Assembly (NCBI RefSeq): GCF_048403405.1
Contig: NZ_CP183131.1
DNA length: 64,000 nt
From: Escherichia coli
GTDB taxonomy: Bacteria > Pseudomonadota > Gammaproteobacteria > Enterobacterales > Enterobacteriaceae
Strand: one strand, 5' to 3'
Part shown: positions 12,401 through 63,016 of the stretch, one piece after another
How positions within the stretch are numbered: position 1 is the stretch's first letter
Layout of the letters: each line of letters begins with the position of its first letter
The notes under the pieces: generated by a model
Database searches by the model: none
Told to the model about the DNA's origin: nothing
What the model saw: only the letters and a program-made list of their open reading frames with translations
Position numbers and translations under genes: made by a program

Positions 12401-12928
12401 TTACCCGCCAGCCAAGTGGTGCAGCCGCATGAACGGGATGTCATCATCCCAGCCATCAGGAGCGGGACCATAGCCTCCGCCCATACCACCTTGCGGTGCT
12501 GATTGCTGCACAGGAGCAGATTGCGTACCGGCTCCTGTACGTTGCCCTTTTTGGGGCGCTGCACGTTGAGAGTTGTCCTGAGGTGCATTTCCACGACCAC
12601 CAAGCATCTGCATTTCAACGCAGTGTACTTCGGTGGTGTAGCGCTCGATTTGTTGGCTGTCAGTCCACTTCCGGGTGCGGTTGCTCCCTTCGAGATAGAC
12701 TTGGGAGCCCTTTTTCAGGTACTCACCAGCGACTTCTGCCAAACGACCTTTAAGCACAATACGGTGCCACTCAGTATGCTCTCTTTGCTCGCCAGACTGC
12801 TTATCGCGCCACGTATCCGTTGTTGCAACGTTGAAGTTGGCAACGGCAGTTCCGCTTGGCATGTAGCGAATTTCCGGGTCAGAACCGAGATTACCGACCA
12901 GAATTACTTTGTTGACGCCTTTAGACAT
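12401..12928 (-). CDS. ssb: single-stranded DNA-binding protein with 9-aa extension after DDDIPF
   Basis: N-terminus [15 protein letters not shown].., Gly-rich linker, DDDIPF then MRLHHLAGG before stop (verified by manual translation). Confidence 0.9.
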
Positions 12929-12991
12929 CATGACCTCCAAGTTATTTGGAGAGGGCCAACGCCCCTTTCGGGGAGCAAGCCCCCGTAAGGG

Positions 12992-15587: not shown

Positions 15588-15908
15588 TTACCAAACAAGT
15601 TCCTTGCCCTTACGAAGGTAAGTCGGGATTTCGAGATAATCCCAGTCAGGTTCTTGTTTAGCGACTTCTTGAACTTGAGTTACCTCAGGTTCAACGACTG
15701 CTTTGGCTTGTTCAGCCTTGGCAGCACGTTCTTTGATGACGGCCTGTACAGACCGCATTGCAGGAACTGCGAATTTGTTCCAAAGGAACAAACCGATACG
15801 CTGGAACACTTTAGCGAGAACGATGAAGGAAAAAGCAAATGCCTTCGCGCCTACGTACAGTGCGCCCAGAGATGCAAGCAGAACTACAATGAAAGTGATG
15901 ATGTGCAT
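15588..15908 (-). CDS. small membrane protein (106 aa, N-terminal TM helix)
   Basis: Hydrophobic N-terminus; RBS TAGGAGCAACACC. Confidence 0.5.
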   Translation of the reverse strand: MHIITFIVVLLASLGALYVGAKAFAFSFIVLAKVFQRIGLFLWNKFAVPAMRSVQAVIKERAAKAEQAKAVVEPEVTQVQEVAKQEPDWDYLEIPTYLRKGKELVW

Positions 15909-16104: not shown

Positions 16105-16120
16105 TGTCCATTTTGGGCAC
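16105..16120 (+). promoter_or_regulatory. FlhDC-family (SetCD/AcaCD-like) activator box TGTCCATTTTGGGCAC
   Basis: One of six related GCCC/GTCC-N5-GGGC boxes in promoter regions; ~80 bp upstream of the 16202 start. Confidence 0.5.
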
Positions 16121-16201
16121 TTCGAGAGGTCAGGTTACAGATTGACCGCATTTATCCTTTCCAGTGCGTTTATCTGTACCTCAAATTTAGGAGTATCTCT
16201 A

Positions 16202-16843
16202 ATGGCAGAAGCACAAGTAGCACTGGACACAAACAACGACCGCAGCAACCACTACTCTCGCCCTGTTTTCAAGCAAGTTCTGAAAGTAAACAGCCTCCAA
16301 GCTCAGCGCGTCATGGAACGCAGCTTTGAGCGAGTTTCCAACTCCCTGTTCTCCATCGACGTGATCCTTCGCATCATCGGTGAGCAGGACGAAATCGACC
16401 AGGTTGAAACCGTCATCCTGGAACACATTTCCAAGGTCTCCGAAGACCTGGACAAAGCTACCGCCCAGCTCAACAAGCTGATGGAAGACAACGGCATCGA
16501 CATGATGCCCGGCTACACCAACCCGAATGAATACACCATCGAGATCAACTCTCCTCAGGTTGCTCAGTTTGCACACCTGATCCGCAAACTGGATACCCTG
16601 ATGGGGATCGTTGACACTCTCTGGCTGAACACCGTACTGACCAGCAAGCAGCGCACCGACGCCACTTACCAATGGCAGCAACGCCTCATCAAGCTGGCCG
16701 GTCGAATCATCGGCATCGAGAAACGGGCTCGCATTTCCGCCCACAGCAAAGGCAAAGAAGGTGAAGTGGCCGAAGCCGCTCCGGAATCTGCAACCGGCGA
16801 CAAGGAAATCGCAGACGAAGCCGAGAAAACAAAAGCAGCATAA
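16202..16843 (+). CDS. hypothetical protein (213 aa), box-associated
   Basis: ORF track 16142..16843; RBS AGGAG before internal ATG. Confidence 0.55.
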   Translation: MAEAQVALDTNNDRSNHYSRPVFKQVLKVNSLQAQRVMERSFERVSNSLFSIDVILRIIGEQDEIDQVETVILEHISKVSEDLDKATAQLNKLMEDNGIDMMPGYTNPNEYTIEINSPQVAQFAHLIRKLDTLMGIVDTLWLNTVLTSKQRTDATYQWQQRLIKLAGRIIGIEKRARISAHSKGKEGEVAEAAPESATGDKEIADEAEKTKAA

Positions 16844-16859
16844 CCCAGCCCAAACCTTT

Positions 16860-16887
16860 GCCCCTCGCCCGAGGGGCTTTTTTTTGT
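16860..16887 (+). terminator. intrinsic terminator
   Basis: GCCCCTCG-CC-CGAGGGGC followed by T8. Confidence 0.7.
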
Positions 16888-16965
16888 CTTTTATGGTTGC
16901 ATTTTTTGATGCTGTGATATTATCGAAGTAAATCAGATTCAACTCAGGTAAGAACGGAGAACAAC

Positions 16966-17826
16966 ATGAAAAAGGCTTTAATCACCACCGTGGCTCTGGC
17001 TGTAGCAGCTCTATCTGGCTGTGCATCCACCAGCAGTTACGAACCCACAGCGTACAAAACCAATCACAGTCGCGCTTACAACATCGCGGAGGCCGGTGGC
17101 CTGGTAACAGGCATCCAAGACGCTTCTGTTCCGCGTGACAAGCTGGAGCGTCTGACCGACACCAAAACGTTTGGGGCAGCCTACGTGCTGTCTGGCTACA
17201 TGTCCCCTCAGCTCGGAATGACCGACTGGCAAGGTGGCTTGGTCAACCTTGCGAACTGGGCTATCGGCCCCAAACAGCATGGCGCTCGCAATAGCTTGAT
17301 CGCTTGGATGCCTGCTAACGAAGCAGTTTCACCGGCAGACGCTCAGGCCAAATTTCTTTCACATGTGAAAGTTTCCATTGAGTCAGCGCTGACTGATTTG
17401 GGTGCCAATTTCACGCTTCTGTATGACAAAGATGGTCGCCTAACCTATCAGTTCTACAAGAATGAATGGGGTTGCCCGACGTGGGTGAACGGACAAAGTA
17501 AGGTAGCTGACATGTGTTCCGTTAAGGTGAAAATCGTGGAGCCTCGCCTAGGGTCAGCTCCTAATTTTGTCTCTGGCGTTCAAGGTACAGCGTATGCCTT
17601 CACATCAGGCCATGAGACCGCATACAACTTTGTGAATGTCGGTAATGGGGCAGCAAGCCATGCTCCTCAGCAAGCGATCTACGCAGCTATTAGCAAACAG
17701 CTACCAGCTTGGGCCTACCTCTACCTTGCTCCAAAATCGGTTGAGCTGGATAATGGCGAAAAAGTTGCTTTCCCTTACCTTCTTGATCAGGGAAAAGCAG
17801 AGTTATTTGTTTACCCAGAAGCGTAA
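16966..17826 (+). CDS. lipoprotein (286 aa)
   Basis: Signal peptide with lipobox LSGC; RBS ACGGAGAA. Confidence 0.6.
   Translation: MKKALITTVALAVAALSGCASTSSYEPTAYKTNHSRAYNIAEAGGLVTGIQDASVPRDKLERLTDTKTFGAAYVLSGYMSPQLGMTDWQGGLVNLANWAIGPKQHGARNSLIAWMPANEAVSPADAQAKFLSHVKVSIESALTDLGANFTLLYDKDGRLTYQFYKNEWGCPTWVNGQSKVADMCSVKVKIVEPRLGSAPNFVSGVQGTAYAFTSGHETAYNFVNVGNGAASHAPQQAIYAAISKQLPAWAYLYLAPKSVELDNGEKVAFPYLLDQGKAELFVYPEA
17356..17371. promoter_or_regulatory. palindrome CTTTCACATGTGAAAG (parS-like), intragenic copy
   Basis: Read directly; inside the lipoprotein CDS. Confidence 0.5.
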
Positions 17827-34544: not shown

Positions 34545-35857
34545 TTCTTGGTTCCCCCGGTGGAACGAATTTGTAGCTTGGTTCCTTTGGTCACGATGAT
34601 GTCTACCTGACGGCCAGCATCGACCTCGATAACGGGGAAGATGCCTTCGGCCATGTCGATATAGAACTGAGCGATGCGATCTAGCGCCTTACTGGCCCCC
34701 TTCACTGCTGCTCCCTGCAACATCTGGTCGGAGAACACAGACTGGTACTGGGTATTTGAGCCAGGGTTAGTGCTGACGACCGGCACAGGATTGACGTCAA
34801 AGGCTTCGGAAACGCCACCAAGGAAGCCTGCCATCAAGCTCTTGGCGATGATTTGCCCCTGCTTCGATACGACGCGACCACGGACACCGGCCTTACCGTC
34901 TTCACCCACTGCATAGGAATCCAGCTTCGCTTCTATGACCCCCCCATCATCCCGAACGCACGAGAAGGTCTCGCCACGCAGGTACGCTCGCTCTGAACTG
35001 AGATCTCCATAGCCTGAAACAATCAGGAAGCACTCACGAACATCCGCACGGAAGCGGTTAGGCAAAATAGCCTCTTTCTGAATCCTGAGGGTCGAAGGGA
35101 ACGGATCTCGACGAGCACCTTGAGATGTTGGTGCGTCCATACCGTTGATGAGCACCCCTGTCAGGATGGAGCCAGAAGGTAGGTAGATAGACTCATCATC
35201 CTTGTTGTCCTTCTCTTCAACTTCTGGCGCTTTCTGCGAGTAGCTCACTATTTGGATGCCTGGTTTAGTTGCATCACGACCGTCTCCCTTGCCAGTTGCA
35301 GGAGCCCCACCCTTCGAGTCAGGAAGCGGTGCGTCCCGAAAAAAGGATGCTGGATCTTTGTAGTCGAGCTTTTTCTCCATGAACTGACCATCACCACCAG
35401 ATGCACCATTAACATCGGCTCTGGCATCCTCTGATGAAGAGGATGTTTTTCCACCAGCAGCGCCGGTTTCGACTTTCTTAGCCAATTCCATGTTCTTCTG
35501 GGTCAGGCGGTCCAAATCTTGACGAAGGCGGGTCATCTCACGGCCAACATCACTGGATTTCCCGGCAGTGGTTTTGGTTTCCTCCAGCTCTTTCTTGACT
35601 CGTTCCAGCTCCTTTTTCAGGTCGGAGTTTTCACGAGACACCATCTTCACATCGGCAGACAACGAATCTATCCCGATCTCACGGGTGTTTTTGTCTGTGA
35701 GAACGTGCTTGATGGTTTCTTGGCGACCGCGCTTCTCTTCTTTCTTGGGTTCACCAGAGAACATTGTCACGACCGCAAAAAGAACGAAGACGCCGCCAGC
35801 GATAGACACCCAACGCTTCTTGTTGGGGTCTAACTGTGTCCAAAATCGCTTAATCAT
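34541..35857 (-). CDS. traB: T4SS protein TraB (VirB10-like)
   Basis: 438 aa, N-terminal TM, charged coiled region, conserved C-terminal domain; gene order. Confidence 0.8.
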   Translation of the reverse strand: MIKRFWTQLDPNKKRWVSIAGGVFVLFAVVTMFSGEPKKEEKRGRQETIKHVLTDKNTREIGIDSLSADVKMVSRENSDLKKELERVKKELEETKTTAGKSSDVGREMTRLRQDLDRLTQKNMELAKKVETGAAGGKTSSSSEDARADVNGASGGDGQFMEKKLDYKDPASFFRDAPLPDSKGGAPATGKGDGRDATKPGIQIVSYSQKAPEVEEKDNKDDESIYLPSGSILTGVLINGMDAPTSQGARRDPFPSTLRIQKEAILPNRFRADVRECFLIVSGYGDLSSERAYLRGETFSCVRDDGGVIEAKLDSYAVGEDGKAGVRGRVVSKQGQIIAKSLMAGFLGGVSEAFDVNPVPVVSTNPGSNTQYQSVFSDQMLQGAAVKGASKALDRIAQFYIDMAEGIFPVIEVDAGRQVDIIVTKGTKLQIRSTGGTKK

Positions 35858-41190: not shown

Positions 41191-43056
41191 TTACTGGGTC
41201 AATATGGGCAGACGGCCTTTTACGATTGTTCCGCCTGAAATTTTGGCTATGTATTCCAGGTTCGGAAGCATTCCCAATAACTGGGCTGGGAACAGATCAG
41301 CTTCCTCCTCCATCAAACGCTCGCCTTGGTTGCCTCCGTGCATAATGGGCTCCTTGCCATCCGAGTTCTGGCCTTGAGTCCGCATGACGTACTTGAGCCG
41401 GGTCTTCGGCAGGTTATCCGCGATATACTCCTGGGTTTCACCATCGACGATACGCAGAGCAAACGTGTTGTTGATGTTCCCCAACACCTGGAGCGCTTTG
41501 TCTTTGCTACCCAGTCGAGCTGCGAAGTCAGCAAAAGTCTGAGTTGCAACGAAAAGACGAAGTTTCGCACCGCGACCTTTGTTCAGGAGCTGGATGAACG
41601 GGTCGTTGATCACCTCGGCAGCCTCATCAACAAAGATATTTACGGGTCTGTTGTTGACGCCGTAGTTGTATCTGTCACCGGCAACCGCTGTCAGGTCTGA
41701 CAGGAAGATGGACCCCATAGCACTACCAACCATGTTGTCGGTCAGGGAGTCGAGCCCCAGATAAGCAACTTGAGCGTTGTTGATGATTTTTGCGGAATCG
41801 GTGATCTGGCGTTCGTCGCTCAGATCAGATGAGTCTGGAGACAGCAGAGGGCCTAGCTCCCCGGACGTCAGCATATTCATGATCGGCAGGAGGTTCGCCA
41901 CCATCTTGGAGAAGTGGGTTTGGTCGTGCTGGAACATCGACAGCAAGCCTTCCAGGTCAGAGTTCGGGTGCTCAGGTTGGATGATGTCGTAGTAGAACTT
42001 CATCAACGCGAAAGCGATCTTCTCACGCGAACCGTTTTTGGCTTTTTCCAAGTAAGCCGCTGCTTCTGCCTCCCAGTCGGGCATAACTCGCTCTGAGTAA
42101 GCCTGAACGGCCTTGATGACCAAGCCAGCAGCGCCACCTTCAAGGAATCGGCGGAGCTTTGTCAGGTTGGGACGATCATGAGTGATGACCAAGCCCTGAG
42201 CGATGTTGTTCAGTGCCTGCCATCCAAATGATTTGAACGGGTCGGCCCCTGCTTCGGACGGGATCAACGCTGCCAAACGACTTGCGATTTCAGTCACGCG
42301 GGTGAAGTTACGCAGAGGGTCGATACGCACCGACTCTTCCGGGAATGCTGGATGAAATGAGACGAATCTTTCCGGCTGCCCCATAGCTTCACAGGCACGT
42401 CGGGCATTGTCCCGCATCTCCTTATCCCCTTTCGGGTCTATGATGATCACGGCTTCCCCACGCAGAATGGCCTGTGAAATCAGGATGTCGAACATACGGG
42501 TCTTGCCCGAGCCGGTGGTCCCAACGATCAGCGAATGCCCCTCAGTGTGCTTGAGTGGCTGCATCAGCTTCTCTTCTTTGGGCTCTACCCCGTGAATCCA
42601 GGGCTGGCCGATTGGCAGCTCCTTTTTCTTACCCTGTATCTTCCGGACAACCTTTTTGACCGTGGACTCTCTCCCTACGATGGAAGTCCAGTCGCGTTTC
42701 AGGATCTCAAACACGCGCTGGGCATGGCGGTTTTCCCACAGGAACCCACTACCAAGCCACATATCGTCCGGCGTGTCCTTGATGTACTTTTGGAGCTCCG
42801 CAATGGAAATAAACTCCAGATCACGCCCCTTCAAATGCTTTTGGAGCAGGTGAAGTTTGATAGCCTTGGGCAAACGAGCCATCGCCATCACGCCACAGAT
42901 CCCCGTCATCCAATAGAATGGCTCCGGCGGCATCGTGCTGACTTGCTCTACGGCCAAAGCCGCGCCGGAGGCGGCAAGCCAGCCTGCTACAGCATTTTTT
43001 TCATAGTTGGGCCGCCACGGCATCTCGTAGGCGAGCGGGTCATAACTCATTGTCAT
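41191..43056 (-). CDS. traD: type IV coupling protein TraD
   Basis: 621 aa; Walker A GTTGSGKT; N-terminal TM; follows traI. Confidence 0.9.
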   Translation of the reverse strand: MTMSYDPLAYEMPWRPNYEKNAVAGWLAASGAALAVEQVSTMPPEPFYWMTGICGVMAMARLPKAIKLHLLQKHLKGRDLEFISIAELQKYIKDTPDDMWLGSGFLWENRHAQRVFEILKRDWTSIVGRESTVKKVVRKIQGKKKELPIGQPWIHGVEPKEEKLMQPLKHTEGHSLIVGTTGSGKTRMFDILISQAILRGEAVIIIDPKGDKEMRDNARRACEAMGQPERFVSFHPAFPEESVRIDPLRNFTRVTEIASRLAALIPSEAGADPFKSFGWQALNNIAQGLVITHDRPNLTKLRRFLEGGAAGLVIKAVQAYSERVMPDWEAEAAAYLEKAKNGSREKIAFALMKFYYDIIQPEHPNSDLEGLLSMFQHDQTHFSKMVANLLPIMNMLTSGELGPLLSPDSSDLSDERQITDSAKIINNAQVAYLGLDSLTDNMVGSAMGSIFLSDLTAVAGDRYNYGVNNRPVNIFVDEAAEVINDPFIQLLNKGRGAKLRLFVATQTFADFAARLGSKDKALQVLGNINNTFALRIVDGETQEYIADNLPKTRLKYVMRTQGQNSDGKEPIMHGGNQGERLMEEEADLFPAQLLGMLPNLEYIAKISGGTIVKGRLPILTQ

Positions 43057-46031
43057 GTTTCATTTACCTCTAAATACAATTTTCCCTGACGTTTCTTGAG
43101 CAAAGGGCGTCTCTGTGCCCGGCTCAGCATCCCGCAGAGGATGTGTTTGCTGATGCCGATGTTTTCACCGGCAATCATGTCGAAGGCTTTGTCACTGGTT
43201 ACTAAGCAGCCATCCTCTTCCAGGACAGGTGTCACGAGCCATCGGCCCGAGCGTTTTTGGATCATGTCCTTGAGCATCTGGAGTGCTTTCTGAGGCGTAA
43301 CACCAGACGGCAAGAAATCTTCCGCGTTGATGTCTTTCGGGTTTGTTTTCGCCTTAGGCGGCTCAAACTCCCTAACCTCTGGATCTTCCCTTTCTCGCAC
43401 CTCGACGTGTCCCAATTCCTTCTCACGCTCAACTTTGGGCTCAGGAGCCACCGGTTGAGCCTCCCGCTTAGGAAGGCGAGCCACGTTCTGTTTTTCTTGG
43501 ACCGGCTTGCGCTGTTGCTCTTCAACCGGAGAAGTAACATCGACCTTCTTCTCCTTCGGCTGTGGCTGGGAGTCCTTACCTTTCGCCTTTTGTTCAGGCG
43601 AGGCTTTACCGGCATTAACCTCAGGCTTCTGCTGCTGCGCCTTTTTTCGGCTTTGTTGTTTCGGTGCAGACTTATTTTTGCTTGCATCCAAGCCAGGGGG
43701 AGAGACGAGCTCAAAGGCATCCTGGTATCCACCCATTGACGCCTCGGCATCCTTAATGGCCGCCACGACTGCATCTGAAAGCTGCTCCGCCAGTACAATT
43801 GCCTTCACTCCGCTGAAATCACGAACTTTGCGACCTGGCATAATCGGGTCCGGAACAATCGCGTTGGCGTGGGACAGCTTCGAGAGAACCTCTGACGGCG
43901 CACCCAGCGACCGAGCGCCATCCGGGTACAAAATGACGGCTTGCCCCTTCATCAGGCATAGGACTTCGCCCAGCGTCGTTTTACCTTCCAAAACAGGCAT
44001 GATCGCTTGTTCAAGCAACGCCGATGCTTCCCCGTATCCAGACAACATCTCAACGAGCAAGGTCTTTGCGTCCTTCTCATGCTGATTAACGTTGTCCGTA
44101 TGCGGCATTTCTGGCGTGTGCGTTGGTTGTTCTGGTGCGTCAGTCAGCATAGGGAGCGGCTCAATCGCCCATGATGGCGGTTCATCAGAACCACCGAACA
44201 TTGGAAAGTCATCGCCCTGCAGGGAGTTTTGTTCTTGTGGAACGAAGTCCTGTTTTGGCTGCTCCTCTTGCTTTCCGGGCATTGCCACATCTGGGATTTC
44301 TGAGTTTGTTGCGTCAGTGCTGGTTGTCTCTGCCGATGCGTTGAATGCGTCAAACGGGAAGTCGATGTCCCCCAGTCCACCCCCAACATCCTTGAGTGCT
44401 TGTAACGGATTGTCGTTTGCCAAAGGTGGTGCGTTTTTGGCAATGTCCTGAGGGGACAGATCCTCTTTTGCCTCTGGTTTATGGGGTTGTTTCTCCGTAT
44501 CACTCTTCGGTTTTGCTTTGCCCGGTTTGCTCTGCGGCTTACCCTTCTTGCCAGCGTCAGGCTTAGATGATTCCGTTGGTCCCGCATCTTTTTGCTCTGG
44601 CTTCTCCTCGACAGCATCGGAGGTGCTTTTCAGCATCTCCATCGCATCACCAAAGCCAAGGCCAGCTAGAGCTTTCTCTGCTTCCTGCTCTGCGGCCAAC
44701 ATGTCATCGTTCAGAGCTGCTTCACCTTCCTCTTGGTCGTCACCGTCATCGGCTTCCTCAGGATCAACGAACTCAATCTCAGCGTCCTCAACATCACCAA
44801 CAACTTCCGCAGCAACAGCCGCAGGAGGCTCAGTCGTAAACACCAGGTCGTTTGATTCGAGTCGGAGCATCAAGATCTTCACCGAACCCGCCGCCTCCTG
44901 GAGCATCTCAGGCAAAACTTCCCAGTAGCGGTAGTACGCACGTTCACCCTTCTCCTGCACCGTGTTTGGTACAGCAAAACCACGTTCGATGAGAATGTCG
45001 GCCAGTGTGTCAGGGTCTCGTGGGATACCGGGGATCTTGTCGTGGCTGATCAAGTCATAAAGGTCCCCAAGCTGTTTCCAGGCAATGAATACACCTTGGT
45101 TGAGGTGCCAGACTTTCGCGCCTGGCTCATTGACCTTCCATTTTCCGGTTTTAACCAGGCGGCGGATGGCATCGAACACGTAACGCTCGACGGGCACACC
45201 ATAGGAGAACTCGTCCACATCGAGACGACTCTGGCGAAGGTCCCGTGAGACGCTCTCTTGGTCAGCGCGAAGCATCAGCTTGGTCACAGGCTGATTGACG
45301 CTGGTTCCTGAGATAGCTTCCAGCATCGCTTCCATGATGGACGGGCCAGACTTGGACAGAAACTCCCGAGTCTCAGCCGGAATAATTCGATCCACCGCCA
45401 GCAGCGAGAATTGCTCATGTCTTTTGTGTCGCTTGTCGCGCCACCGGATAAAGTAACGGTCGATTTCGTGACGGTGTGCCCAGTCATGAAGTGACTCCGA
45501 ATACGGGTTCCATGTGATTGACCCGTCTTTGTCCGTAATGGACACATCCGAGAGCGGTTTACCCACATCATGCAGCAGCCCAGAGAAACAGCTCGCCAGT
45601 CTCCAACGCGGCTCATTGTCACGGCGTTCCCGAGGCGTCCCCTCGATGGAAAAGATAACTGACTCAGATGCCTGAGCTGCCCAGAAGGCCACTTCAAGCC
45701 CATGTCGGAACAGACCACCAGCGCCACGGTGGTGGTGTGATTCGGAAGCTGGCAACAGGTGAACAAACGCGGCATACCGCTGGATCACCGGCAAAACAAG
45801 CCGGTTGAAGTCGTCCACAGTGAAACCGAGAGAGTTCCGCACTTTCTCAATCAGTTCAGCTTGGGTTGCCAGTATCTTGTCTAGTGGGGCCACTGGCAGG
45901 CCCTTGGCAAAAGGTGGGTATCGAGGGATTTCTTCATCTTCCACGTCTTTAAGCGGCAACACTCTGGCGCTCGGCGCGGTCTCGATCACTCCACTTCGCC
46001 CACCAAATAACTTGTTAAGGGCTTTCAGCAT
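43053..46031 (-). CDS. traI: relaxase TraI (HD-domain, MOBH-type)
   Basis: 992 aa; HD hydrolase motifs (HHHRGAGGLFRHGLEV, LLHDVGK); long disordered acidic/lysine-rich middle; precedes traD. Confidence 0.8.
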   Translation of the reverse strand: MLKALNKLFGGRSGVIETAPSARVLPLKDVEDEEIPRYPPFAKGLPVAPLDKILATQAELIEKVRNSLGFTVDDFNRLVLPVIQRYAAFVHLLPASESHHHRGAGGLFRHGLEVAFWAAQASESVIFSIEGTPRERRDNEPRWRLASCFSGLLHDVGKPLSDVSITDKDGSITWNPYSESLHDWAHRHEIDRYFIRWRDKRHKRHEQFSLLAVDRIIPAETREFLSKSGPSIMEAMLEAISGTSVNQPVTKLMLRADQESVSRDLRQSRLDVDEFSYGVPVERYVFDAIRRLVKTGKWKVNEPGAKVWHLNQGVFIAWKQLGDLYDLISHDKIPGIPRDPDTLADILIERGFAVPNTVQEKGERAYYRYWEVLPEMLQEAAGSVKILMLRLESNDLVFTTEPPAAVAAEVVGDVEDAEIEFVDPEEADDGDDQEEGEAALNDDMLAAEQEAEKALAGLGFGDAMEMLKSTSDAVEEKPEQKDAGPTESSKPDAGKKGKPQSKPGKAKPKSDTEKQPHKPEAKEDLSPQDIAKNAPPLANDNPLQALKDVGGGLGDIDFPFDAFNASAETTSTDATNSEIPDVAMPGKQEEQPKQDFVPQEQNSLQGDDFPMFGGSDEPPSWAIEPLPMLTDAPEQPTHTPEMPHTDNVNQHEKDAKTLLVEMLSGYGEASALLEQAIMPVLEGKTTLGEVLCLMKGQAVILYPDGARSLGAPSEVLSKLSHANAIVPDPIMPGRKVRDFSGVKAIVLAEQLSDAVVAAIKDAEASMGGYQDAFELVSPPGLDASKNKSAPKQQSRKKAQQQKPEVNAGKASPEQKAKGKDSQPQPKEKKVDVTSPVEEQQRKPVQEKQNVARLPKREAQPVAPEPKVEREKELGHVEVREREDPEVREFEPPKAKTNPKDINAEDFLPSGVTPQKALQMLKDMIQKRSGRWLVTPVLEEDGCLVTSDKAFDMIAGENIGISKHILCGMLSRAQRRPLLKKRQGKLYLEVNET

Positions 46032-46109
46032 GTAGGTTGACCATATTCCTATCGTATTTCTCGTCGCTACATGCTCTCAAAACACCTTTAGATCGCACAC
46101 ACGCCTATC

Positions 46110-46124
46110 TGTCCAATTTGGGCA
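46110..46124 (+). promoter_or_regulatory. FlhDC-family activator box TGTCCAATTTGGGCAG
   Basis: Between divergent traI and lipoprotein gene; same orientation as the 16105 box. Confidence 0.5.
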
Positions 46125-46198
46125 GTTTGAGAAACCAGCTTTCCATCCCCCCCCTTTTAGAATGGGCTCATCGACAATTTTTGATGAGGAACGACACG

Positions 46199-46816
46199 AT
46201 GAGACAACTGATAGCAATTCTGGGAGTGGCAATTCTGGCCGGGTGTGCCTCTAACGCCCCCGAGCAAAAGCCTCAGCCCCAGACTGCCCCTGCCGAAAAT
46301 GACAAACCTGCCCGAGTTAGCCGGGAACTGTCGATGGCATGGGACAACATGGGGCGCGGTGGTGCTGCATTACGTCAACCTGGTTATATCCATGTGCTGG
46401 GCGACGGTAATGTCAGCGCAACGATGAACAAGGTCAAAGATGACTCCGCTGGTTCAGATAAAACTCCAGCAGGGATCAAGCAGCACGGGGATGTGAACGA
46501 AGCCATCAATACCTTCAAGTCCATGAATAAAGGCAAAGGCTACTCGCTGTACGAGTTGTCACGCTGGGAACGCTATTGCGATGGCGGCAAAGGTATGGAC
46601 GAGCACGATTGGCGCTTTGTGGAAGCCGAGGGGACTACAAACATCCCCAAGGATGTTGTAACCGGCTGCATACCACCTACCCACACCTATCAAGATTATC
46701 TGAATGCCTGGACGCACTTTTGCACCAGCCAGGCTGTAACTGACGCAGATCGCCGCATTGTGCGCGAGTCCGTGCGTCCCTATTCAGTGGTGAACCCATG
46801 CAAAGCTCTGAAATAA
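46199..46816 (+). CDS. lipoprotein (205 aa)
   Basis: ORF track 46037..46816; start moved to MRQLIAILGVAILAGC (lipobox) after RBS GAGGAA. Confidence 0.55.
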   Translation: MRQLIAILGVAILAGCASNAPEQKPQPQTAPAENDKPARVSRELSMAWDNMGRGGAALRQPGYIHVLGDGNVSATMNKVKDDSAGSDKTPAGIKQHGDVNEAINTFKSMNKGKGYSLYELSRWERYCDGGKGMDEHDWRFVEAEGTTNIPKDVVTGCIPPTHTYQDYLNAWTHFCTSQAVTDADRRIVRESVRPYSVVNPCKALK

Positions 46817-47031
46817 GAAACCAGACAGAGCCAAGCCGTAAGGCTGAGCTCTTCGACGCTTTATCAATCATGCTCCAGGAGGCCGGTTCGAGGGGTAATT
46901 CCCGCGAAGCGGCCTATGTCATTTCTGGAGTCCTCGAAAACCTCTCCAGAGACTACCCCGAAGTCAAAGGTCTGGCCCAAAGCTGGGCTGAGCTGGCGAA
47001 TCTGGAATCAAAGATGAGAGGAGCTGCTTAA
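46798..47031 (+). CDS. hypothetical small protein (77 aa)
   Basis: ORF track; fills gap before topB; weak RBS. Confidence 0.35.
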   Translation: MQSSEIRNQTEPSRKAELFDALSIMLQEAGSRGNSREAAYVISGVLENLSRDYPEVKGLAQSWAELANLESKMRGAA

Positions 47032-49223
47032 TGGACCTTTATATCTGCGAGAAGCCTTCTCAGGCCAAAGATTTGGCTGGCGTAATGAAGGCCTCCCAAC
47101 GAGGTGATGGATTTCTCCATGATGGAGGAAACCGCGTTATTACGTGGGCGTTCGGCCACCTGCTGGAATTGTATATGCCAGACGATTATGACGAACGCTA
47201 CAAGTCATGGTCACTGGAGACCCTCCCTATTGCACCAGAGTCATGGCGGTACAACGTTCGCAAGAGTGCGTTCAAACAGTACAAAATTGTTGAGGGACTG
47301 GTCAAAAAGGCGAGCACCATCTACATCTCAACGGACTACGACCGAGAAGGTGAGGCTATCGCCCGTTCGCTTCTGGATCGATTCCGCTACTCTGGCCCTA
47401 TTCGCCGGGTTTGTTTGACGGCTCTCGATGAGTCAAGCATCAAGAAAGCGCTGAACAACGTAAAGGATGGCAAGGATACGGTCTCACTCTACTACGCCGC
47501 ATTGGCACGGCAACGCGCTGACTGGTTGGTAGGCATGAACGTGAGCCGCCTCTACACAGTGCTGGCCCGAGATGTCGGCTTCAACCACACTCTTCACGTT
47601 GGCAGGGTTATCACCCCAACCGTCGCTCTTGTTTGTCAACGGGACCGAGAGATCGCCGGTTTCACCCCCTCACCATACTGGACTCTGGGTGTGAACGTGT
47701 CCGTACAGAATGGACAGTTTGCCGCCCAATGGATACCACCAGAAGAGTGCAGTGACGAGCAAGGCCGGTGCGTCAATAAGGCCTATGCCGAGCAGGTAGC
47801 CTCCCAGGTCAATGGTGCCAATGCTGTTATCAGCAAAGCAGAAACCAAACCAGGTAAAGAGTCAGCCCCCCTCCCCTTCGATCTAACGTCGCTGCAACAA
47901 TACGCAAGCAAACGATGGGGATACACCGCTCAGCAGGTACTGGATGCAGCTCAAGCTCTGTACGAGACGCACAAAGCGACCACCTACCCTCGTACTGATA
48001 GTCGTTATCTACCCGAGAGCCAAAAGGAAGACATTCCGGACATTCTCCAGGCGCTCATTTTGTCCGATCAGAACGTCTCTGGGCTGGTGGCTGGCGCAGA
48101 TCCTCATCGCAAGGCCAGGGTATTCAATGACGCCAAAGTGACCGCGCACCACGCGATCATTCCAACACCGGCCAGAACAGACATCAGTGCCATGTCTGAG
48201 ATCGAGTTCAATCTTTACGACGCCATCCGTCGTTTCTACATCGCGCAGTTCTACAGCGAGTTCGAGTTCACCAAAACCTCCATCGAGGTGCAGTGTGGGC
48301 GTCACCTCTTTGCGGCCTCTGGTAAGACACCTGCCAAACAAGGCTGGAAGGTTTTGTTTGCTTCTGATAGTGAAAGCAGTCCCAAGGACGAGGGGGAAGA
48401 CACCGACGCGCCGGTTGAACAAGAGAAGCTCCCCAGGGTTAGCCAGGGCGAACCCGCTTTGCTTAATGGTGCCGAGCTGGCAAACAAAATGACGCGGCCA
48501 GCACCGCACTTCACCGAAGCCACATTGCTTGCCGCGATGGAGAACATTGCCCGGTTCGTGACTGAGGAGAAGTTCAAGCAAATTCTCAAAGACACAGCCG
48601 GTTTAGGCACTCCAGCAACACGCGCAAGCATCATCCAGGGCGCTGTTGATAAAGGCTACTTCAAACGTCAGAAAAAGGTACTGCTTGCAACTGATAAGGC
48701 TCATGCGCTTATCGCAGTGCTTCCACCAGCCATCAAATCACCCGGCATGACTGCGGCTTGGGAGCAGGAGCTTGAGAAAGTCGCCTCCGGCTCCGGGAAT
48801 ATGTCTGTCTTCATGAAGCAGATTTCCACCTGGATCTGCCAAATGGTTGAGCAGCTCAAAGTGCCCGCACCGGTTCTGACCAAAGAAGGTGGCGCGATGG
48901 CTAAAGCCTTCGAGGGCGCTAAGCCGCCTTCACACGAATGCTTCAACTGCGGTGGAGAGATGCACCGGATCAAAGGGAAGAACGGATTTTTCTGGGGCTG
49001 CCAGAACGAGGCTTGCAAGAAGACGTTCCCAGACAACCGAGGGAAACCCGAGAAGCGTATCGCGGCTGAGGATTGTCCAGACTGCCCAGATTGCGGTAGC
49101 CCGATGCGTCTCAGGAAAGGAAAAGCGCCCGGCAAGAAGCGAGCTTCTAAGTTCTGGGGCTGCACCGCCTATCCCGATTGCAAAGGCACTATGCCCTTCA
49201 AAAAGTCGGACTTTATGGATTGA
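47031..49223 (+). CDS. topB: DNA topoisomerase III
   Basis: Toprim N-terminus, active-site region TYPRTDSRYL, two C-terminal Cys4 zinc ribbons. Confidence 0.9.
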   Translation: MDLYICEKPSQAKDLAGVMKASQRGDGFLHDGGNRVITWAFGHLLELYMPDDYDERYKSWSLETLPIAPESWRYNVRKSAFKQYKIVEGLVKKASTIYISTDYDREGEAIARSLLDRFRYSGPIRRVCLTALDESSIKKALNNVKDGKDTVSLYYAALARQRADWLVGMNVSRLYTVLARDVGFNHTLHVGRVITPTVALVCQRDREIAGFTPSPYWTLGVNVSVQNGQFAAQWIPPEECSDEQGRCVNKAYAEQVASQVNGANAVISKAETKPGKESAPLPFDLTSLQQYASKRWGYTAQQVLDAAQALYETHKATTYPRTDSRYLPESQKEDIPDILQALILSDQNVSGLVAGADPHRKARVFNDAKVTAHHAIIPTPARTDISAMSEIEFNLYDAIRRFYIAQFYSEFEFTKTSIEVQCGRHLFAASGKTPAKQGWKVLFASDSESSPKDEGEDTDAPVEQEKLPRVSQGEPALLNGAELANKMTRPAPHFTEATLLAAMENIARFVTEEKFKQILKDTAGLGTPATRASIIQGAVDKGYFKRQKKVLLATDKAHALIAVLPPAIKSPGMTAAWEQELEKVASGSGNMSVFMKQISTWICQMVEQLKVPAPVLTKEGGAMAKAFEGAKPPSHECFNCGGEMHRIKGKNGFFWGCQNEACKKTFPDNRGKPEKRIAAEDCPDCPDCGSPMRLRKGKAPGKKRASKFWGCTAYPDCKGTMPFKKSDFMD

Positions 49224-49237
49224 TAGAGGAATTAAGT

Positions 49238-49726
49238 ATGTTTGGAACAATCATTTTAACTGCGATGCTCACCACCAGCTCAGCCACTGCCGAAGATGCA
49301 GGGAAGAACATCGCCTCAGGCTTGGCGGCGGCATCCGCCAGCCAAATGGGGCAGGCCGTAATGCCAACTTTAGCTACCAGCTCGGCCATTGCAAAAAGCG
49401 CAGGTAAAGGCATGGTGTCAGGTTTGGCTGCGGCGACTGCCAGCTACATTCCCCAAGACGAGCTGAGCTTTACTCGAAGCTATAAGAACTCTGAGGCTGT
49501 GGATATGGCAAAGGGCCTGGGGACATTGAAAGAAGCGCCTGAGTTTCTCTACGTTGTTACAGACGTAAATGCCAACATGGCGGTCAAATGCAAGCGCGTC
49601 TGGGAGCCTCAATCTCTGGCTTTAAGTCCAGTGATTGTTGAGCTGGTGGAACTACGTAAGACGAACAACAAAGACAGCTACGAACAAGCACTATCCCACC
49701 TCGATTGTTCAATGTTCACAGACTAA
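49238..49726 (+). CDS. secreted protein (162 aa)
   Basis: ORF track 49178..49726; RBS GAGGAA before MFGTIILTAML signal peptide. Confidence 0.5.
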   Translation: MFGTIILTAMLTTSSATAEDAGKNIASGLAAASASQMGQAVMPTLATSSAIAKSAGKGMVSGLAAATASYIPQDELSFTRSYKNSEAVDMAKGLGTLKEAPEFLYVVTDVNANMAVKCKRVWEPQSLALSPVIVELVELRKTNNKDSYEQALSHLDCSMFTD

Positions 49727-49735
49727 AACAATTAA

Positions 49736-49758
49736 GGGGCCGATGGCCCCTAATTTTT
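49736..49758 (+). terminator. intrinsic terminator
   Basis: GGGGCC-GAT-GGCCCC then TAATTTTT. Confidence 0.65.
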
Positions 49759-49817
49759 AATAACCCAATTTCTTTTGATACCTGATTTTCCTACCAAGCA
49801 CAGTTGTCATACACCAT

Positions 49818-56274: not shown

Positions 56275-56291
56275 GCGCCCATTTTGGGCAG
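56275..56291. promoter_or_regulatory. FlhDC-family activator box GCGCCCATTTTGGGCAG
   Basis: In divergent intergenic hub 56186..56494. Confidence 0.5.
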
Positions 56292-60500: not shown

Positions 60501-61316
60501 ATGAATAAATCGCTCATCATTTTCGGCATCGTCAACATAACCTCGGACAGTTTCTCCGATGGAGGCCGGTATCTGGCGCCAGACGCAGCCATTGCGCAGG
60601 CGCGTAAGCTGATGGCCGAGGGGGCAGATGTGATCGACCTCGGTCCGGCATCCAGCAATCCCGACGCCGCGCCTGTTTCGTCCGACACAGAAATCGCGCG
60701 TATCGCGCCGGTGCTGGACGCGCTCAAGGCAGATGGCATTCCCGTCTCGCTCGACAGTTATCAACCCGCGACGCAAGCCTATGCCTTGTCGCGTGGTGTG
60801 GCCTATCTCAATGATATTCGCGGTTTTCCAGACGCTGCGTTCTATCCGCAATTGGCGAAATCATCTGCCAAACTCGTCGTTATGCATTCGGTGCAAGACG
60901 GGCAGGCAGATCGGCGCGAGGCACCCGCTGGCGACATCATGGATCACATTGCGGCGTTCTTTGACGCGCGCATCGCGGCGCTGACGGGTGCCGGTATCAA
61001 ACGCAACCGCCTTGTCCTTGATCCCGGCATGGGGTTTTTTCTGGGGGCTGCTCCCGAAACCTCGCTCTCGGTGCTGGCGCGGTTCGATGAATTGCGGCTG
61101 CGCTTCGATTTGCCGGTGCTTCTGTCTGTTTCGCGCAAATCCTTTCTGCGCGCGCTCACAGGCCGTGGTCCGGGGGATGTCGGGGCCGCGACACTCGCTG
61201 CAGAGCTTGCCGCCGCCGCAGGTGGAGCTGACTTCATCCGCACACACGAGCCGCGCCCCTTGCGCGACGGGCTGGCGGTATTGGCGGCGCTGAAAGAAAC
61301 CGCAAGAATTCGTTAA
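60501..61316 (+). CDS. sul2: sulfonamide-resistant dihydropteroate synthase Sul2
   Basis: 271-aa protein recognised as Sul2 from memory of the sequence (MNKSLIIFGIVNITSDSF...). Confidence 0.97.
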   Translation: MNKSLIIFGIVNITSDSFSDGGRYLAPDAAIAQARKLMAEGADVIDLGPASSNPDAAPVSSDTEIARIAPVLDALKADGIPVSLDSYQPATQAYALSRGVAYLNDIRGFPDAAFYPQLAKSSAKLVVMHSVQDGQADRREAPAGDIMDHIAAFFDARIAALTGAGIKRNRLVLDPGMGFFLGAAPETSLSVLARFDELRLRFDLPVLLSVSRKSFLRALTGRGPGDVGAATLAAELAAAAGGADFIRTHEPRPLRDGLAVLAALKETARIR

Positions 61317-61376
61317 CTGCACATTCGGGATATTTCTCTATATTCGCGCTTCATCAGAAAACTGAAGGAACCTCCA

Positions 61377-62180
61377 TTGAATCGAACTAATATTTTTTTT
61401 GGTGAATCGCATTCTGACTGGTTGCCTGTCAGAGGCGGAGAATCTGGTGATTTTGTTTTTCGACGTGGTGACGGGCATGCCTTCGCGAAAATCGCACCTG
61501 CTTCCCGCCGCGGTGAGCTCGCTGGAGAGCGTGACCGCCTCATTTGGCTCAAAGGTCGAGGTGTGGCTTGCCCCGAGGTCATCAACTGGCAGGAGGAACA
61601 GGAGGGTGCATGCTTGGTGATAACGGCAATTCCGGGAGTACCGGCGGCTGATCTGTCTGGAGCGGATTTGCTCAAAGCGTGGCCGTCAATGGGGCAGCAA
61701 CTTGGCGCTGTTCACAGCCTATCGGTTGATCAATGTCCGTTTGAGCGCAGGCTGTCGCGAATGTTCGGACGCGCCGTTGATGTGGTGTCCCGCAATGCCG
61801 TCAATCCCGACTTCTTACCGGACGAGGACAAGAGTACGCCGCAGCTCGATCTTTTGGCTCGTGTCGAACGAGAGCTACCGGTGCGGCTCGACCAAGAGCG
61901 CACCGATATGGTTGTTTGCCATGGTGATCCCTGCATGCCGAACTTCATGGTGGACCCTAAAACTCTTCAATGCACGGGTCTGATCGACCTTGGGCGGCTC
62001 GGAACAGCAGATCGCTATGCCGATTTGGCACTCATGATTGCTAACGCCGAAGAGAACTGGGCAGCGCCAGATGAAGCAGAGCGCGCCTTCGCTGTCCTAT
62101 TCAATGTATTGGGGATCGAAGCCCCCGACCGCGAACGCCTTGCCTTCTATCTGCGATTGGACCCTCTGACTTGGGGTTGA
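61377..62180 (+). CDS. strA: aminoglycoside 3''-phosphotransferase APH(3'')-Ib (StrA)
   Basis: 267 aa recognised as StrA (MNRTNIFFGESHSDWLPV...). Confidence 0.97.
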   Translation: MNRTNIFFGESHSDWLPVRGGESGDFVFRRGDGHAFAKIAPASRRGELAGERDRLIWLKGRGVACPEVINWQEEQEGACLVITAIPGVPAADLSGADLLKAWPSMGQQLGAVHSLSVDQCPFERRLSRMFGRAVDVVSRNAVNPDFLPDEDKSTPQLDLLARVERELPVRLDQERTDMVVCHGDPCMPNFMVDPKTLQCTGLIDLGRLGTADRYADLALMIANAEENWAAPDEAERAFAVLFNVLGIEAPDRERLAFYLRLDPLTWG

Positions 62181-63016
62181 TGTTCATGCCGCCTGTTTTT
62201 CCTGCTCATTGGCACGTTTCGCAACCTGTTCTCATTGCGGACACCTTTTCCAGCCTCGTTTGGAAAGTTTCATTGCCAGACGGGACTCCTGCAATCGTCA
62301 AGGGATTGAAACCTATAGAAGACATTGCTGATGAACTGCGCGGGGCCGACTATCTGGTATGGCGCAATGGGAGGGGAGCAGTCCGGTTGCTCGGTCGTGA
62401 GAACAATCTGATGTTGCTCGAATATGCCGGGGAGCGAATGCTCTCTCACATCGTTGCCGAGCACGGCGACTACCAGGCGACCGAAATTGCAGCGGAACTA
62501 ATGGCGAAGCTGTATGCCGCATCTGAGGAACCCCTGCCTTCTGCCCTTCTCCCGATCCGGGATCGCTTTGCAGCTTTGTTTCAGCGGGCGCGCGATGATC
62601 AAAACGCAGGTTGTCAAACTGACTACGTCCACGCGGCGATTATAGCCGATCAAATGATGAGCAATGCCTCGGAACTGCGTGGGCTACATGGCGATCTGCA
62701 TCATGAAAACATCATGTTCTCCAGTCGCGGCTGGCTGGTGATAGATCCCGTCGGTCTGGTCGGTGAAGTGGGCTTTGGCGCCGCCAATATGTTCTACGAT
62801 CCGGCTGACAGAGACGACCTTTGTCTCGATCCTAGACGCATTGCACAGATGGCGGACGCATTCTCTCGTGCGCTGGACGTCGATCCGCGTCGCCTGCTCG
62901 ACCAGGCGTACGCTTATGGGTGCCTTTCCGCAGCTTGGAACGCGGATGGAGAAGAGGAGCAACGCGATCTAGCTATCGCGGCCGCGATCAAGCAGGTGCG
63001 ACAGACGTCATACTAG
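62180..63016 (+). CDS. strB: aminoglycoside 6-phosphotransferase APH(6)-Id (StrB)
   Basis: 278 aa from ATG at 62180 (MFMPPVFPAHW...); overlaps strA stop by 1 nt. Confidence 0.97.
   Translation: MFMPPVFPAHWHVSQPVLIADTFSSLVWKVSLPDGTPAIVKGLKPIEDIADELRGADYLVWRNGRGAVRLLGRENNLMLLEYAGERMLSHIVAEHGDYQATEIAAELMAKLYAASEEPLPSALLPIRDRFAALFQRARDDQNAGCQTDYVHAAIIADQMMSNASELRGLHGDLHHENIMFSSRGWLVIDPVGLVGEVGFGAANMFYDPADRDDLCLDPRRIAQMADAFSRALDVDPRRLLDQAYAYGCLSAAWNADGEEEQRDLAIAAAIKQVRQTSY

What the first reader, a model, noticed from the sequence alone, without database searches (positions are those of the whole stretch)
46032..49760. Plus-strand island: lipoprotein, small ORF, topoisomerase III and secreted protein between two leftward blocks
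The only sizeable plus-strand unit in the backbone, driven from the region containing the 46110 box and ended by a terminator convergent with the 13-gene operon. Topoisomerase III co-expressed with exported proteins under a transfer activator box suggests it acts during conjugative DNA processing.
Basis: inference. Interest (0 to 1): 0.3.

Follow-up and report, generated by a model that had tools for sequence, protein, structure and literature searches.

The report
IncC plasmid vcrx059–topB transfer-regulated operon
This is the already-described four-gene operon of IncC (IncA/C2) resistance plasmids (lipoprotein, small protein, topoisomerase III, small exported-looking protein) that the transfer activator AcaCD switches on back-to-back with the relaxase gene; the switch is published, but what the genes do for transfer is still untested.

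Summary
The window is an IncC conjugative plasmid backbone, 100% identical here to hundreds of clinical plasmids. Bases 46199-49726 (+) carry four tightly packed genes: a lipoprotein (205 aa), a 77-aa protein, a 730-aa topoisomerase III with two C-terminal zinc ribbons, and a 162-aa protein. A bidirectional hairpin terminator follows at 49735-49751. This is the vcrx059-vcrx056 operon of pVCR94.

Carraro et al. 2014 mapped its AcaCD site, which corresponds to window 46106-46134, and its transcription start at 46169-46171. They also showed zero expression without AcaCD. Durand et al. 2021 confirmed the activation with lacZ fusions.

The functional half, that topoisomerase III acts in conjugative DNA processing, is plausible but untested. 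I found that the pairing of relaxase gene and lipoprotein gene, usually followed by topB, is conserved with the activator box in distant relatives. topB is under strong purifying selection (dN/dS 0.03-0.04). Against necessity, a complete IncC plasmid from a clinical isolate carries an IS-disrupted topB, and two relatives lack topB.

Corrections: the lipoprotein starts at 46199, not 46037. This is the largest plus-strand backbone unit but not the only one (acaB-sfx, 16202-17826).

Novelty: already known. Interest: low.

The parts
46106..46134 (+). AcaCD binding motif for the vcrx059 promoter. The core TGTCCAATTTGGGCAG is at 46110-46125, followed by TTTGAG. It overlaps by 24 nt the oppositely oriented motif for PtraI (46101-46129, minus strand).
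   Evidence: Table S3 of Carraro 2014 places the motif at pVCR94 35010-35038 (p=3.6e-7) inside a ChIP-exo peak. The mapping w = 81144 - p reproduces all six gene coordinates exactly. The pattern is enriched over chance. The box sits at the same position in distant relatives.
46158..46171 (+). The -10 hexamer TAGAAT (46158-46163) and the transcription start (46169-46171). There is no recognisable -35, which fits an activator-dependent promoter. The 5' UTR is about 29 nt.
   Evidence: The 5'-RACE start is at pVCR94 34973-34975 with signal 3458. The sequence was read. TAnAAT/TAAACT is conserved at a fixed distance from the box in six aligned elements.
46199..46816 (+). vcrx059: a 205-aa predicted lipoprotein (lipobox LAGC, Cys16). 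It has four further invariant cysteines, a disordered linker and a confidently predicted helical C-terminal domain. Function unknown.
46798..47031 (+). vcrx058: a 77-aa acidic protein that is translationally coupled (19-nt overlap upstream, TAATG junction with topB). Function unknown.
   Evidence: Homologues are present in L003 (44% identity), L014 and L015; the gene is frameshifted in L005 and absent in L006 and L017. RNA-seq reads 0 without AcaCD and 484 with it.
47031..49223 (+). vcrx057 / topB: a 730-aa type IA DNA topoisomerase III. It has a Toprim domain (E7, D102-x-D104-x-E106), catalytic Tyr319, a decatenation loop and two C-terminal C4 zinc ribbons.
   Evidence: Pfam and NCBIfam: NF005829 scores 768.8 bits against a cut-off of 597. 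Alignment to E. coli Topo III structures gives E=1e-128. dN/dS is 0.03-0.04. RNA-seq reads 131 (wild type), 0 (acaCD deletion) and 854 (AcaCD supplied).
49238..49726 (+). vcrx056: a 162-aa protein with a conserved hydrophobic N-terminus (MFGTIILTAMLTTSSATA|ED) and an internal duplication of about 30 aa. It is lineage-restricted and fast-evolving. Export is plausible but unproven.
   Evidence: Amino-acid identity between IncC lineages is 81.6%, against 99.5% for its neighbours. The AF2 model is low-confidence.
49735..49751 (.). Bidirectional intrinsic terminator (AGGGGCC-GAT-GGCCCCT) with T-rich tails on both strands. It ends this operon and the converging vcrx036-vcrx055 cluster.
43053..46031 (-). 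traI (MOBH relaxase), first gene of the divergent traI-traD-... operon. Its promoter shares the AcaCD site, and its transcription start maps to 46064-46066.

Best explanation
This is the vcrx059-vcrx058-vcrx057(topB)-vcrx056 operon of IncC plasmids, an accessory part of the DNA-transfer module.

Shown in published work: the FlhDC-like activator AcaCD binds one composite site in the 167-bp traI/vcrx059 intergenic region. Acting as a class II activator, with its motif spanning about -64 to -36, it fires both divergent promoters. The relaxase/coupling-protein operon and this operon are therefore made together, and only when transfer is induced.

Inferred: the enzyme is a genuine Topo III-type single-strand decatenase. 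Its likely job is to unlink or resolve the gapped, ssDNA-containing plasmid intermediates that conjugative rolling-circle replication and complementary-strand synthesis create. It would work alongside the plasmid's own SSB, whose gene is also on the plasmid. This would be a host-independent back-up that helps a broad-host-range plasmid but is redundant with chromosomal TopB and Topo IV in E. coli. I therefore expect it to be dispensable, or only mildly beneficial, in laboratory matings.

The lipoprotein is the member most tightly tied to the relaxase gene. It probably serves the envelope side of transfer; its role is unknown. The fourth gene is a variable slot.

On confidence: identity and regulation are near certain. 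The stated confidence refers to the inferred transfer-linked, non-essential decatenase role.
For: - Identity: the region matches 992 PLSDB plasmids, 385 of them at 99% identity or more, typed IncC/MOBH/MPF_F.
- Published regulation: ChIP-exo peak, motif, 5'-RACE start and RNA-seq (0 without AcaCD, 180-854 with it) and a predicted operon vcrx059-vcrx056. Reporter fusions were activated by AcaCD and SgaCD.
- Operon anatomy: overlapping or abutting genes and a single terminator.
- Enzyme: catalytic residues, decatenation loop and zinc ribbons are all present, and dN/dS is 0.03-0.04.
- Conserved linkage: in 8 of 8 distant homologue contexts the lipoprotein gene is divergent from a MOBH traI. In 6 of 8, topB with zinc ribbons follows.
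- Conserved promoter: box and -10 hold their position in IncC, IncA and two distant elements; in a third the box is degenerate.
- Precedent: the IncP-1 TraE-type Topo III is 39.6% identical and sits inside the relaxase operon. Type IA topoisomerase genes occur on at least 5000 PLSDB plasmids, 87% of them conjugative.
- From my own knowledge, not checked here: RP4 TraE has Topo III activity, complements E. coli topB and is not needed for RP4 transfer (Li et al. 1997, cited).
Against: - No experiment links these genes to transfer. No paper in the searchable library studies them beyond their promoter.
- The IncC conjugation TraDIS study (Hancock 2020) is not held. My recollection is that topB was not among its 27 conjugation genes.
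- A complete IncC plasmid typed as conjugative (typing was in silico, by MOB-suite) carries topB split by ISKpn18.
- Two relatives keep the lipoprotein but have no topB.
- The lipoprotein and the 77-aa and 162-aa proteins have no family, defence or fold match.
Confidence: 0.55

Rival explanations
1. Vegetative maintenance role. TopB decatenates daughter plasmids or resolves recombination intermediates during ordinary replication, so that the operon is a stability module rather than a transfer module.
For: - Topo III decatenates gapped replication intermediates; this is established for E. coli TopB (my knowledge).
- Wild-type pVCR94 expresses topB at a moderate level (131) because AcaCD is partly active.
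- Purifying selection is strong.
Against: - Expression is zero without AcaCD, whereas replication and partition genes are AcaCD-independent.
- An IS-disrupted topB persists in a clinical IncC plasmid.
- The gene is wired to the relaxase promoter region in all relatives examined.
Confidence: 0.12
2. The envelope proteins are the point of the operon. The lipoprotein, perhaps with the variable fourth protein, is an uncharacterised envelope component of A/C-like conjugation, acting in mating-pair formation, T4SS assembly or protection of the donor envelope. On this reading topB is a frequent passenger.
For: - The lipoprotein is the invariant neighbour of traI (8 of 8 contexts), while topB is absent in 2 of 8.
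- Four invariant cysteines suggest periplasmic disulfides, and the plasmid encodes its own DsbC.
- The slot downstream of topB often holds surface-type proteins with Lcl_C or Calx-beta domains.
- The 5'-RACE signal of Pvcrx059 (3458) is among the strongest in the regulon.
Against: - There is no similarity to any known T4SS or exclusion component.
- IncC exclusion is already fully accounted for by eexC plus sfx.
- topB is itself strongly conserved.
Confidence: 0.25
3. Establishment in the recipient or counter-defence. The operon's products act after entry, for example TopB helping to convert the incoming strand into a supercoiled replicon or countering host systems.
For: - The zinc-ribbon C-terminus suits ssDNA binding.
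- A gene cluster with DNA methyltransferases, which carries its own AcaCD box (though Durand 2021 found that promoter constitutively active in reporter assays), converges on the same terminator.
Against: - There is no evidence of early expression in recipients.
- The promoter needs AcaCD rather than an ssDNA promoter.
- The only PADLOC hit is generic topoisomerase-domain similarity to DpdF.
Confidence: 0.08

Closest known systems
vcrx059-vcrx056 operon of IncC plasmid pVCR94 (Carraro et al. 2014, PMC4207636; Durand et al. 2021, PMC8373056)
   Same: It is the same locus. All six gene coordinates map exactly by w = 81144 - p. It has the same AcaCD motif, transcription start and divergent traI promoter.
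   Different: Nothing substantive. The window comes from a closely related IncC plasmid; over the two overlapping stretches checked it is collinear with, and where scored identical to, pKP64477c.
TraE, the topoisomerase III homologue of IncP-1 plasmids (RP4; pBP136 orthologue)
   Same: It is a plasmid-borne Topo III linked to the relaxase/Dtr module. It shares 39.6% identity over 92% of the IncC protein.
   Different: In IncP-1 the gene lies inside the relaxase operon (traJ-traI-traG-traF-topo III). Here it lies in a divergent operon behind a lipoprotein gene. The relaxase family (MOBP against MOBH), the T4SS type (MPF_T against MPF_F) and the regulator all differ.
E. coli chromosomal TopB (PDB 1D6M, 1I7D)
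   Same: The catalytic core aligns over residues 1-615 (E=1e-128). The Toprim acidic residues, the catalytic tyrosine and the decatenation loop are all conserved.
   Different: The plasmid enzyme carries two TopA-style C4 zinc ribbons at its C-terminus (residues about 636-725), which E. coli TopB lacks. Its decatenation loop is 3 residues shorter.
topB-hns (sfx) module of IncX plasmids
   Same: A plasmid Topo III conserved in the backbone and proposed, but not shown, to assist conjugation. Protein identity is about 33%.
   Different: The partner gene differs (an H-NS homologue rather than a lipoprotein), as does the regulation.

Membership tests
DNA topoisomerase III (type IA, TopB subfamily) | Toprim plus Topoisom_bac domains scoring above the curated Topo III model cut-offs | tested here: met
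   NF005829 scores 768.8 bits (cut-off 597) and TIGR01056 scores 680.4 (cut-off 515.75). PF01131 E=1.3e-108; PF01751 E=2.7e-13.
DNA topoisomerase III (type IA, TopB subfamily) | Catalytic tyrosine and Toprim acidic cluster | tested here: met
   Y319 aligns with E. coli Y328 in the TYPR motif. E7 and D102-x-D104-x-E106 align with E7, D103, D105 and E107.
DNA topoisomerase III (type IA, TopB subfamily) | Decatenation loop, the insertion that distinguishes Topo III from Topo I | tested here: met
   The query has IPPEECS---DEQGR aligned to E. coli residues 241-255 (QPSEACEPYQDEEGR), which is 3 residues shorter.
DNA topoisomerase III (type IA, TopB subfamily) | ssDNA-dependent relaxation and decatenation activity | not testable with these tools
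   This requires purified protein.
AcaCD regulon of IncA/IncC plasmids | AcaCD motif upstream at class II distance from the transcription start | tested here: met
   The core TGTCCAATTTGGGCAG lies at 46110-46125. The motif maps to 46106-46134 and the published start to 46169-46171.
AcaCD regulon of IncA/IncC plasmids | AcaCD occupancy and AcaCD-dependent transcription | not testable with these tools
   Shown experimentally by others for the same locus in pVCR94, whose gene coordinates map exactly onto the window: ChIP-exo peak height 8308, expression 0 without AcaCD and 297 with it, and a lacZ fusion.
Bacterial lipoprotein (Sec/SPII substrate) - vcrx059 | Basic n-region, hydrophobic h-region and a lipobox L-[AS]-[GA]-C | tested here: met
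   The N-terminus is MRQLIAILGVAILAGC. The cysteine is invariant in all 39 aligned homologues. No SignalP run was possible.
Sec-secreted protein - vcrx056 | Canonical signal peptide with a charged n-region, an h-region and an AxA cleavage site | tested here: inconclusive
   The hydrophobic N-terminus and the ATA|ED site are conserved, but there is no Lys or Arg in the n-region, and the segment is duplicated internally. No predictor was available.
Known conjugation envelope or exclusion proteins (TraV, TraT, Sfx, Eex) - vcrx059 | Sequence or fold similarity to a characterised family | tested here: not met

The most novel reading that the evidence does not exclude
The vcrx059 lipoprotein family has 231 clusters at 50% identity and no annotation. 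It was divergent from a MOBH relaxase gene, usually behind a shared activator box, in all eight contexts examined. It may be an unrecognised, functionally important component of A/C-like conjugation systems. With the small protein and the zinc-ribbon Topo III it may form a dedicated 'transfer-intermediate resolution plus envelope' module that measurably affects transfer or establishment in natural, non-E. coli hosts.
Probability: 0.25. Interest if true: 0.45.

Novelty: already known. Interest (0 to 1): 0.15.

Why it matters
IncC plasmids are major carriers of carbapenemase and other resistance genes, so every AcaCD-controlled gene is a candidate transfer factor. The operon and its regulation are already in the literature, so this finding adds no new biology.

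What remains open is why a transfer-specific operon pairs a lipoprotein with a Topo III, and why at least 5000 plasmids in PLSDB, mostly conjugative, carry type IA topoisomerases. A clear phenotype would give the first assigned role for plasmid Topo III in a MOBH system. It would also identify a new conserved lipoprotein of these transfer systems.

Tried and rejected
- Surface exclusion: I checked whether either exported protein is the IncC surface-exclusion factor Sfx. It is not; sfx is vcrx085, at 16966-17826.
- Family and fold searches: Pfam, NCBIfam, PADLOC and PHROGs gave nothing for the three small proteins. The exceptions were PHROG matches confined to the lipoprotein's signal peptide and, for topB, generic topoisomerase-domain similarity to DpdF.
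- vcrx056 structure: the AF2 model was too poor to search (mean pLDDT 51.8), so I ran no fold search on it.
- Phase variation: the C8 tract between box and -10 (46147-46154) was considered as a phase-variation switch. I found no length variation among the IncC and IncA plasmids compared and no conservation in distant relatives, so this is not supported.
- RNA and repeats: Rfam found nothing in the whole window, and there are no meaningful repeats in the island.
- Missing sources: the Hancock 2017 and 2020 TraDIS papers are not held. RP4 (BN000925) and pVCR94 (KF551948) are not in the plasmid collection.
- Long ORF: the 259-aa ORF starting at TTG 46037 is rejected because the mapped transcription start lies downstream of it.
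Full report
**What the window is.** The region 46000-49800 matches 992 plasmids in PLSDB. Of these, 385 match at 99% identity or more, and nearly all are typed IncC or IncA, MOBH, MPF_F and conjugative. Where I compared them, the window lines up base for base with pKP64477c (NZ_MF150121.1) from record position 28900. Window 40000-64000 matches it at 100% in one piece, and its annotation for record 28900-78899 falls on the window's ORF coordinates. The minus-strand gene ending at 46031 is the MOBH relaxase traI. traD and the traLEKBVA genes lie downstream of it.

**Checking the observation.**
- On the plus strand, PGAP and the ORF list agree on four genes: 46199-46816 (205 aa), 46798-47031 (77 aa), 47031-49223 (730 aa) and 49238-49726 (162 aa).
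- The junctions are those of an operon. There is a 19-nt overlap, then a TAATG stop/start overlap preceded by AGGAG, then a 14-nt gap containing GAGGAA.
- A 7-bp, 6-GC hairpin at 49735-49751 has T-rich tails on both strands. It sits 66 nt from the end of the converging minus-strand cluster.
- The first protein begins MRQLIAILGVAILAGC, a textbook lipobox. That cysteine is invariant in 39 aligned homologues.
- The third protein passes NCBI's curated Topo III models: NF005829 scores 768.8 bits against a cut-off of 597. It has Toprim and Topoisom_bac domains and two Zn_ribbon_Top1 stretches.
- The box at 46110 (TGTCCAATTTGGGCA) is a perfect instance of a pattern found at 7 sites in the window against 1.6 expected, with no shuffle out of 100 reaching 7.

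The observation therefore stands, with three corrections.
- The lipoprotein starts at ATG 46199, not at the TTG at 46037.
- acaB (16202-16843) and sfx (16966-17826) form a second plus-strand backbone unit, so this one is the largest rather than the only one.
- 'Secreted' is plausible but unproven for the fourth protein. Its hydrophobic N-terminus has an ATA|ED site but no basic residue, and the segment is duplicated internally.

**It is a published operon.** Carraro et al. 2014 (PMC4207636) characterised the AcaCD regulon of the IncC plasmid pVCR94 by ChIP-exo, genome-wide 5'-RACE and RNA-seq.
- Their gene coordinates for vcrx055, vcrx056, vcrx057, vcrx058, vcrx059 and traI convert exactly to the window by w = 81144 - p.
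- Their Table S3 lists one ChIP peak (height 8308) in the vcrx059/traI intergenic region with two overlapping, oppositely oriented motifs.
  - The vcrx059 motif maps to window 46106-46134 (p=3.6e-7), with a transcription start at window 46169-46171 and a 5'-RACE signal of 3458.
  - The traI motif maps to 46101-46129, with a start at 46064-46066.
- Expression of vcrx059 goes from 0 in the acaCD deletion to 297 with AcaCD. Rockhopper calls vcrx059-vcrx056 one operon.
- Dataset S1 gives, for wild type / acaCD deletion / complemented strain: vcrx059 12/0/297; vcrx058 24/0/484; vcrx057 (topB) 131/0/854; vcrx056 14/0/180.
- The paper singles out this divergent pair as two partially overlapping initiation complexes of a class II activator.
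- Durand et al. 2021 (PMC8373056) cloned the vcrx059 promoter in front of lacZ. [quoted passage not shown]

In the sequence, TAGAAT at 46158-46163 lies 6-7 nt upstream of the mapped start. There is no -35 match, which fits activator dependence.

**What I could add about the enzyme.**
- Against E. coli Topo III structures (1D6M, 1I7D) the protein aligns over residues 1-615 at E=1e-128. It conserves E7, D102-x-D104-x-E106, the catalytic tyrosine (Y319, equivalent to E. coli Y328) and the decatenation loop, which is 3 residues shorter.
- Unlike E. coli TopB, it ends in two C4 zinc ribbons.
- It is under strong purifying selection. dN/dS is 0.04 between the two IncC lineages compared (window versus p33676) and 0.03 against IncA.
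- Type IA topoisomerases of this kind occur on at least 5000 PLSDB plasmids, 87% of them conjugative.
- The IncP-1 TraE-type enzyme is 39.6% identical. In pBP136 it sits inside the relaxase operon, traJ-traI-traG-traF-topo III.

**What I could add about the neighbours.**
- The lipoprotein belongs to an unannotated family. There are 65 clusters by word-seeded search and 231 representative clusters at 50% identity by profile search. Four cysteines besides the lipobox cysteine are invariant, and two motifs are highly conserved: GRGGAALRQPxYIHVLG and YSLYELSRWERYC..GKGMDE.DWRF.
- I looked at the genomic context of eight distant family members, seven of them 37-50% identical to the IncC lipoprotein and one more distant. 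They come from Vibrio, Marinobacterium, Marinomonas, Pseudoalteromonas, one further genome assembly and metagenomes.
  - In 8 of 8, the lipoprotein gene is divergent from a MOBH traI-traD-dtrJ-traL cluster.
  - In 6 of 8, a zinc-ribbon topB follows.
  - In 4 of 8, a homologue of the 77-aa gene lies between them, frameshifted in one case.
  - The gene after topB is different every time, and twice it encodes Lcl_C or Calx-beta proteins.
- In the three distant contexts whose promoter regions I aligned, the intergenic region stays about 165 nt long. The activator box and a TAnAAT-like -10 keep their positions in the Vibrio and Marinobacterium elements, and the box is degenerate in one metagenomic element.
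- The fourth gene, vcrx056, is restricted to IncA/C plasmids and close relatives. It is only 52% identical between IncC and IncA. Between the two IncC lineages compared it is far more diverged than its neighbours: 81.6% against 99.5% amino-acid identity, and dS 0.29 against 0.05. That pattern indicates a recombination patch.

**Mechanism.** Shown by others: AcaCD binds the shared site and drives both operons, so the relaxase, the coupling protein and this operon appear together, and only in transfer-competent cells. Inferred by me: the enzyme is a real Topo III decatenase. It is wired to the DNA-transfer module in two unrelated plasmid lineages (MOBH here, MOBP in IncP-1). The most economical role is resolving gapped or hemicatenated plasmid intermediates produced by conjugative rolling-circle replication and complementary-strand synthesis. 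It would act together with the plasmid's SSB (gene at 12401-12931). This would be a host-independent back-up for a broad-host-range plasmid.

I expect it to be non-essential in E. coli, for four reasons:
- A complete K. pneumoniae IncC plasmid typed as conjugative (in silico, by MOB-suite) has topB split by ISKpn18 at window position about 48492.
- Two relatives lack topB.
- RP4 TraE is reported to be dispensable for transfer (Li et al. 1997, cited; its content is my recollection).
- As I recall, topB was not among the conjugation genes in the IncC TraDIS study, which I could not read.

The maintenance alternative is weakened by the complete AcaCD dependence of expression. The alternative that the lipoprotein is the functional core of the operon is viable, because it is the invariant partner of traI.

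**Verdict.** The feature is real and correctly described in outline. Its regulation is published, and its function is still unassigned. No paper in the searchable library goes beyond the promoter. Novelty: already known. Interest is low. A modest residual question concerns the conserved, unannotated lipoprotein and the general role of plasmid Topo III.

Noticed in passing
window 16105-17826: A second plus-strand backbone unit. It consists of acaB (16202-16843) and the surface-exclusion gene sfx (16966-17826), with a perfect AcaCD core at 16105-16119 shared with a divergent minus-strand gene (vcrx087, 15588-15908).
   Followed up: partly
window 46147-46154: A C8 homopolymer lies in the spacer between the AcaCD box and the -10 of the vcrx059 promoter. 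IncA has T+C7 with the same total spacing. I saw no length variation in the plasmids compared, so there is no sign of phase variation, but I did not survey all roughly 1000 plasmids.
   Followed up: partly
window 49238-49726: vcrx056 is a divergence hot spot. Amino-acid identity between IncC lineages is 81.6% and dS is 0.29, against 99.5% and 0.05 for the adjacent genes. The IncC copy also carries an N-terminal duplication of about 30 aa that is absent from the IncA and Photorhabdus homologues.
   Followed up: partly
L007 (NZ_CP024192.1), corresponding to window ~48492-48497: ISKpn18 is inserted in topB of a complete 221-kb K. pneumoniae IncC plasmid. This is a natural knock-out of the enzyme in a plasmid still typed (in silico) as conjugative.
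   Followed up: partly
L009 (LT904892.1), corresponding to window 49699-49707: A 1057-bp insertion flanked by a 9-bp duplication lies in the last codons of vcrx056 in an S. Typhi IncC plasmid. The size and duplication fit an IS903-like element, but I did not identify it.
   Followed up: no
L008 (CP041052.1, pEnC126NDM): This IncC derivative has lost everything from the region upstream of traI through the first ~560 codons of topB. It has no relaxase and is typed as mobilizable only.
   Followed up: no
window 56276-56290: An AcaCD box-like site (CGCCCATTTTGGGCA) lies upstream of the converging minus-strand cluster (12 genes in PGAP; vcrx036-vcrx055 in pVCR94). It appears to correspond to the published vcrx035/vcrx036 divergent site. 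Durand 2021 found those two promoters constitutively active in reporter assays.
   Followed up: partly
window 45530-45544: A box-like sequence TGTCCGTAATGGACA (1 mismatch) lies inside the traI coding region. It is not among the published ChIP-exo sites and is probably a chance match.
   Followed up: no
L005 8663-8961 (Marinobacterium aestuariivivens contig): The homologue of the 77-aa gene is split across two reading frames between the lipoprotein gene and topB. This could be a frameshift, a pseudogene or a sequencing error.
   Followed up: no
L014 9192-11248 and L017 9692-11799: In two distant relatives the slot downstream of topB encodes large proteins with Lcl_C (and, in L017, Calx-beta) domains, which are adhesin-like surface proteins. 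This suggests the position is a cargo slot for envelope proteins.
   Followed up: no
window 60501-63013: sul2, aph(3'')-Ib (strA) and an APH(6)-I family gene (strB-like) form a resistance island. This explains why pVCR94 coordinates stop mapping beyond about 60 kb.
   Followed up: yes
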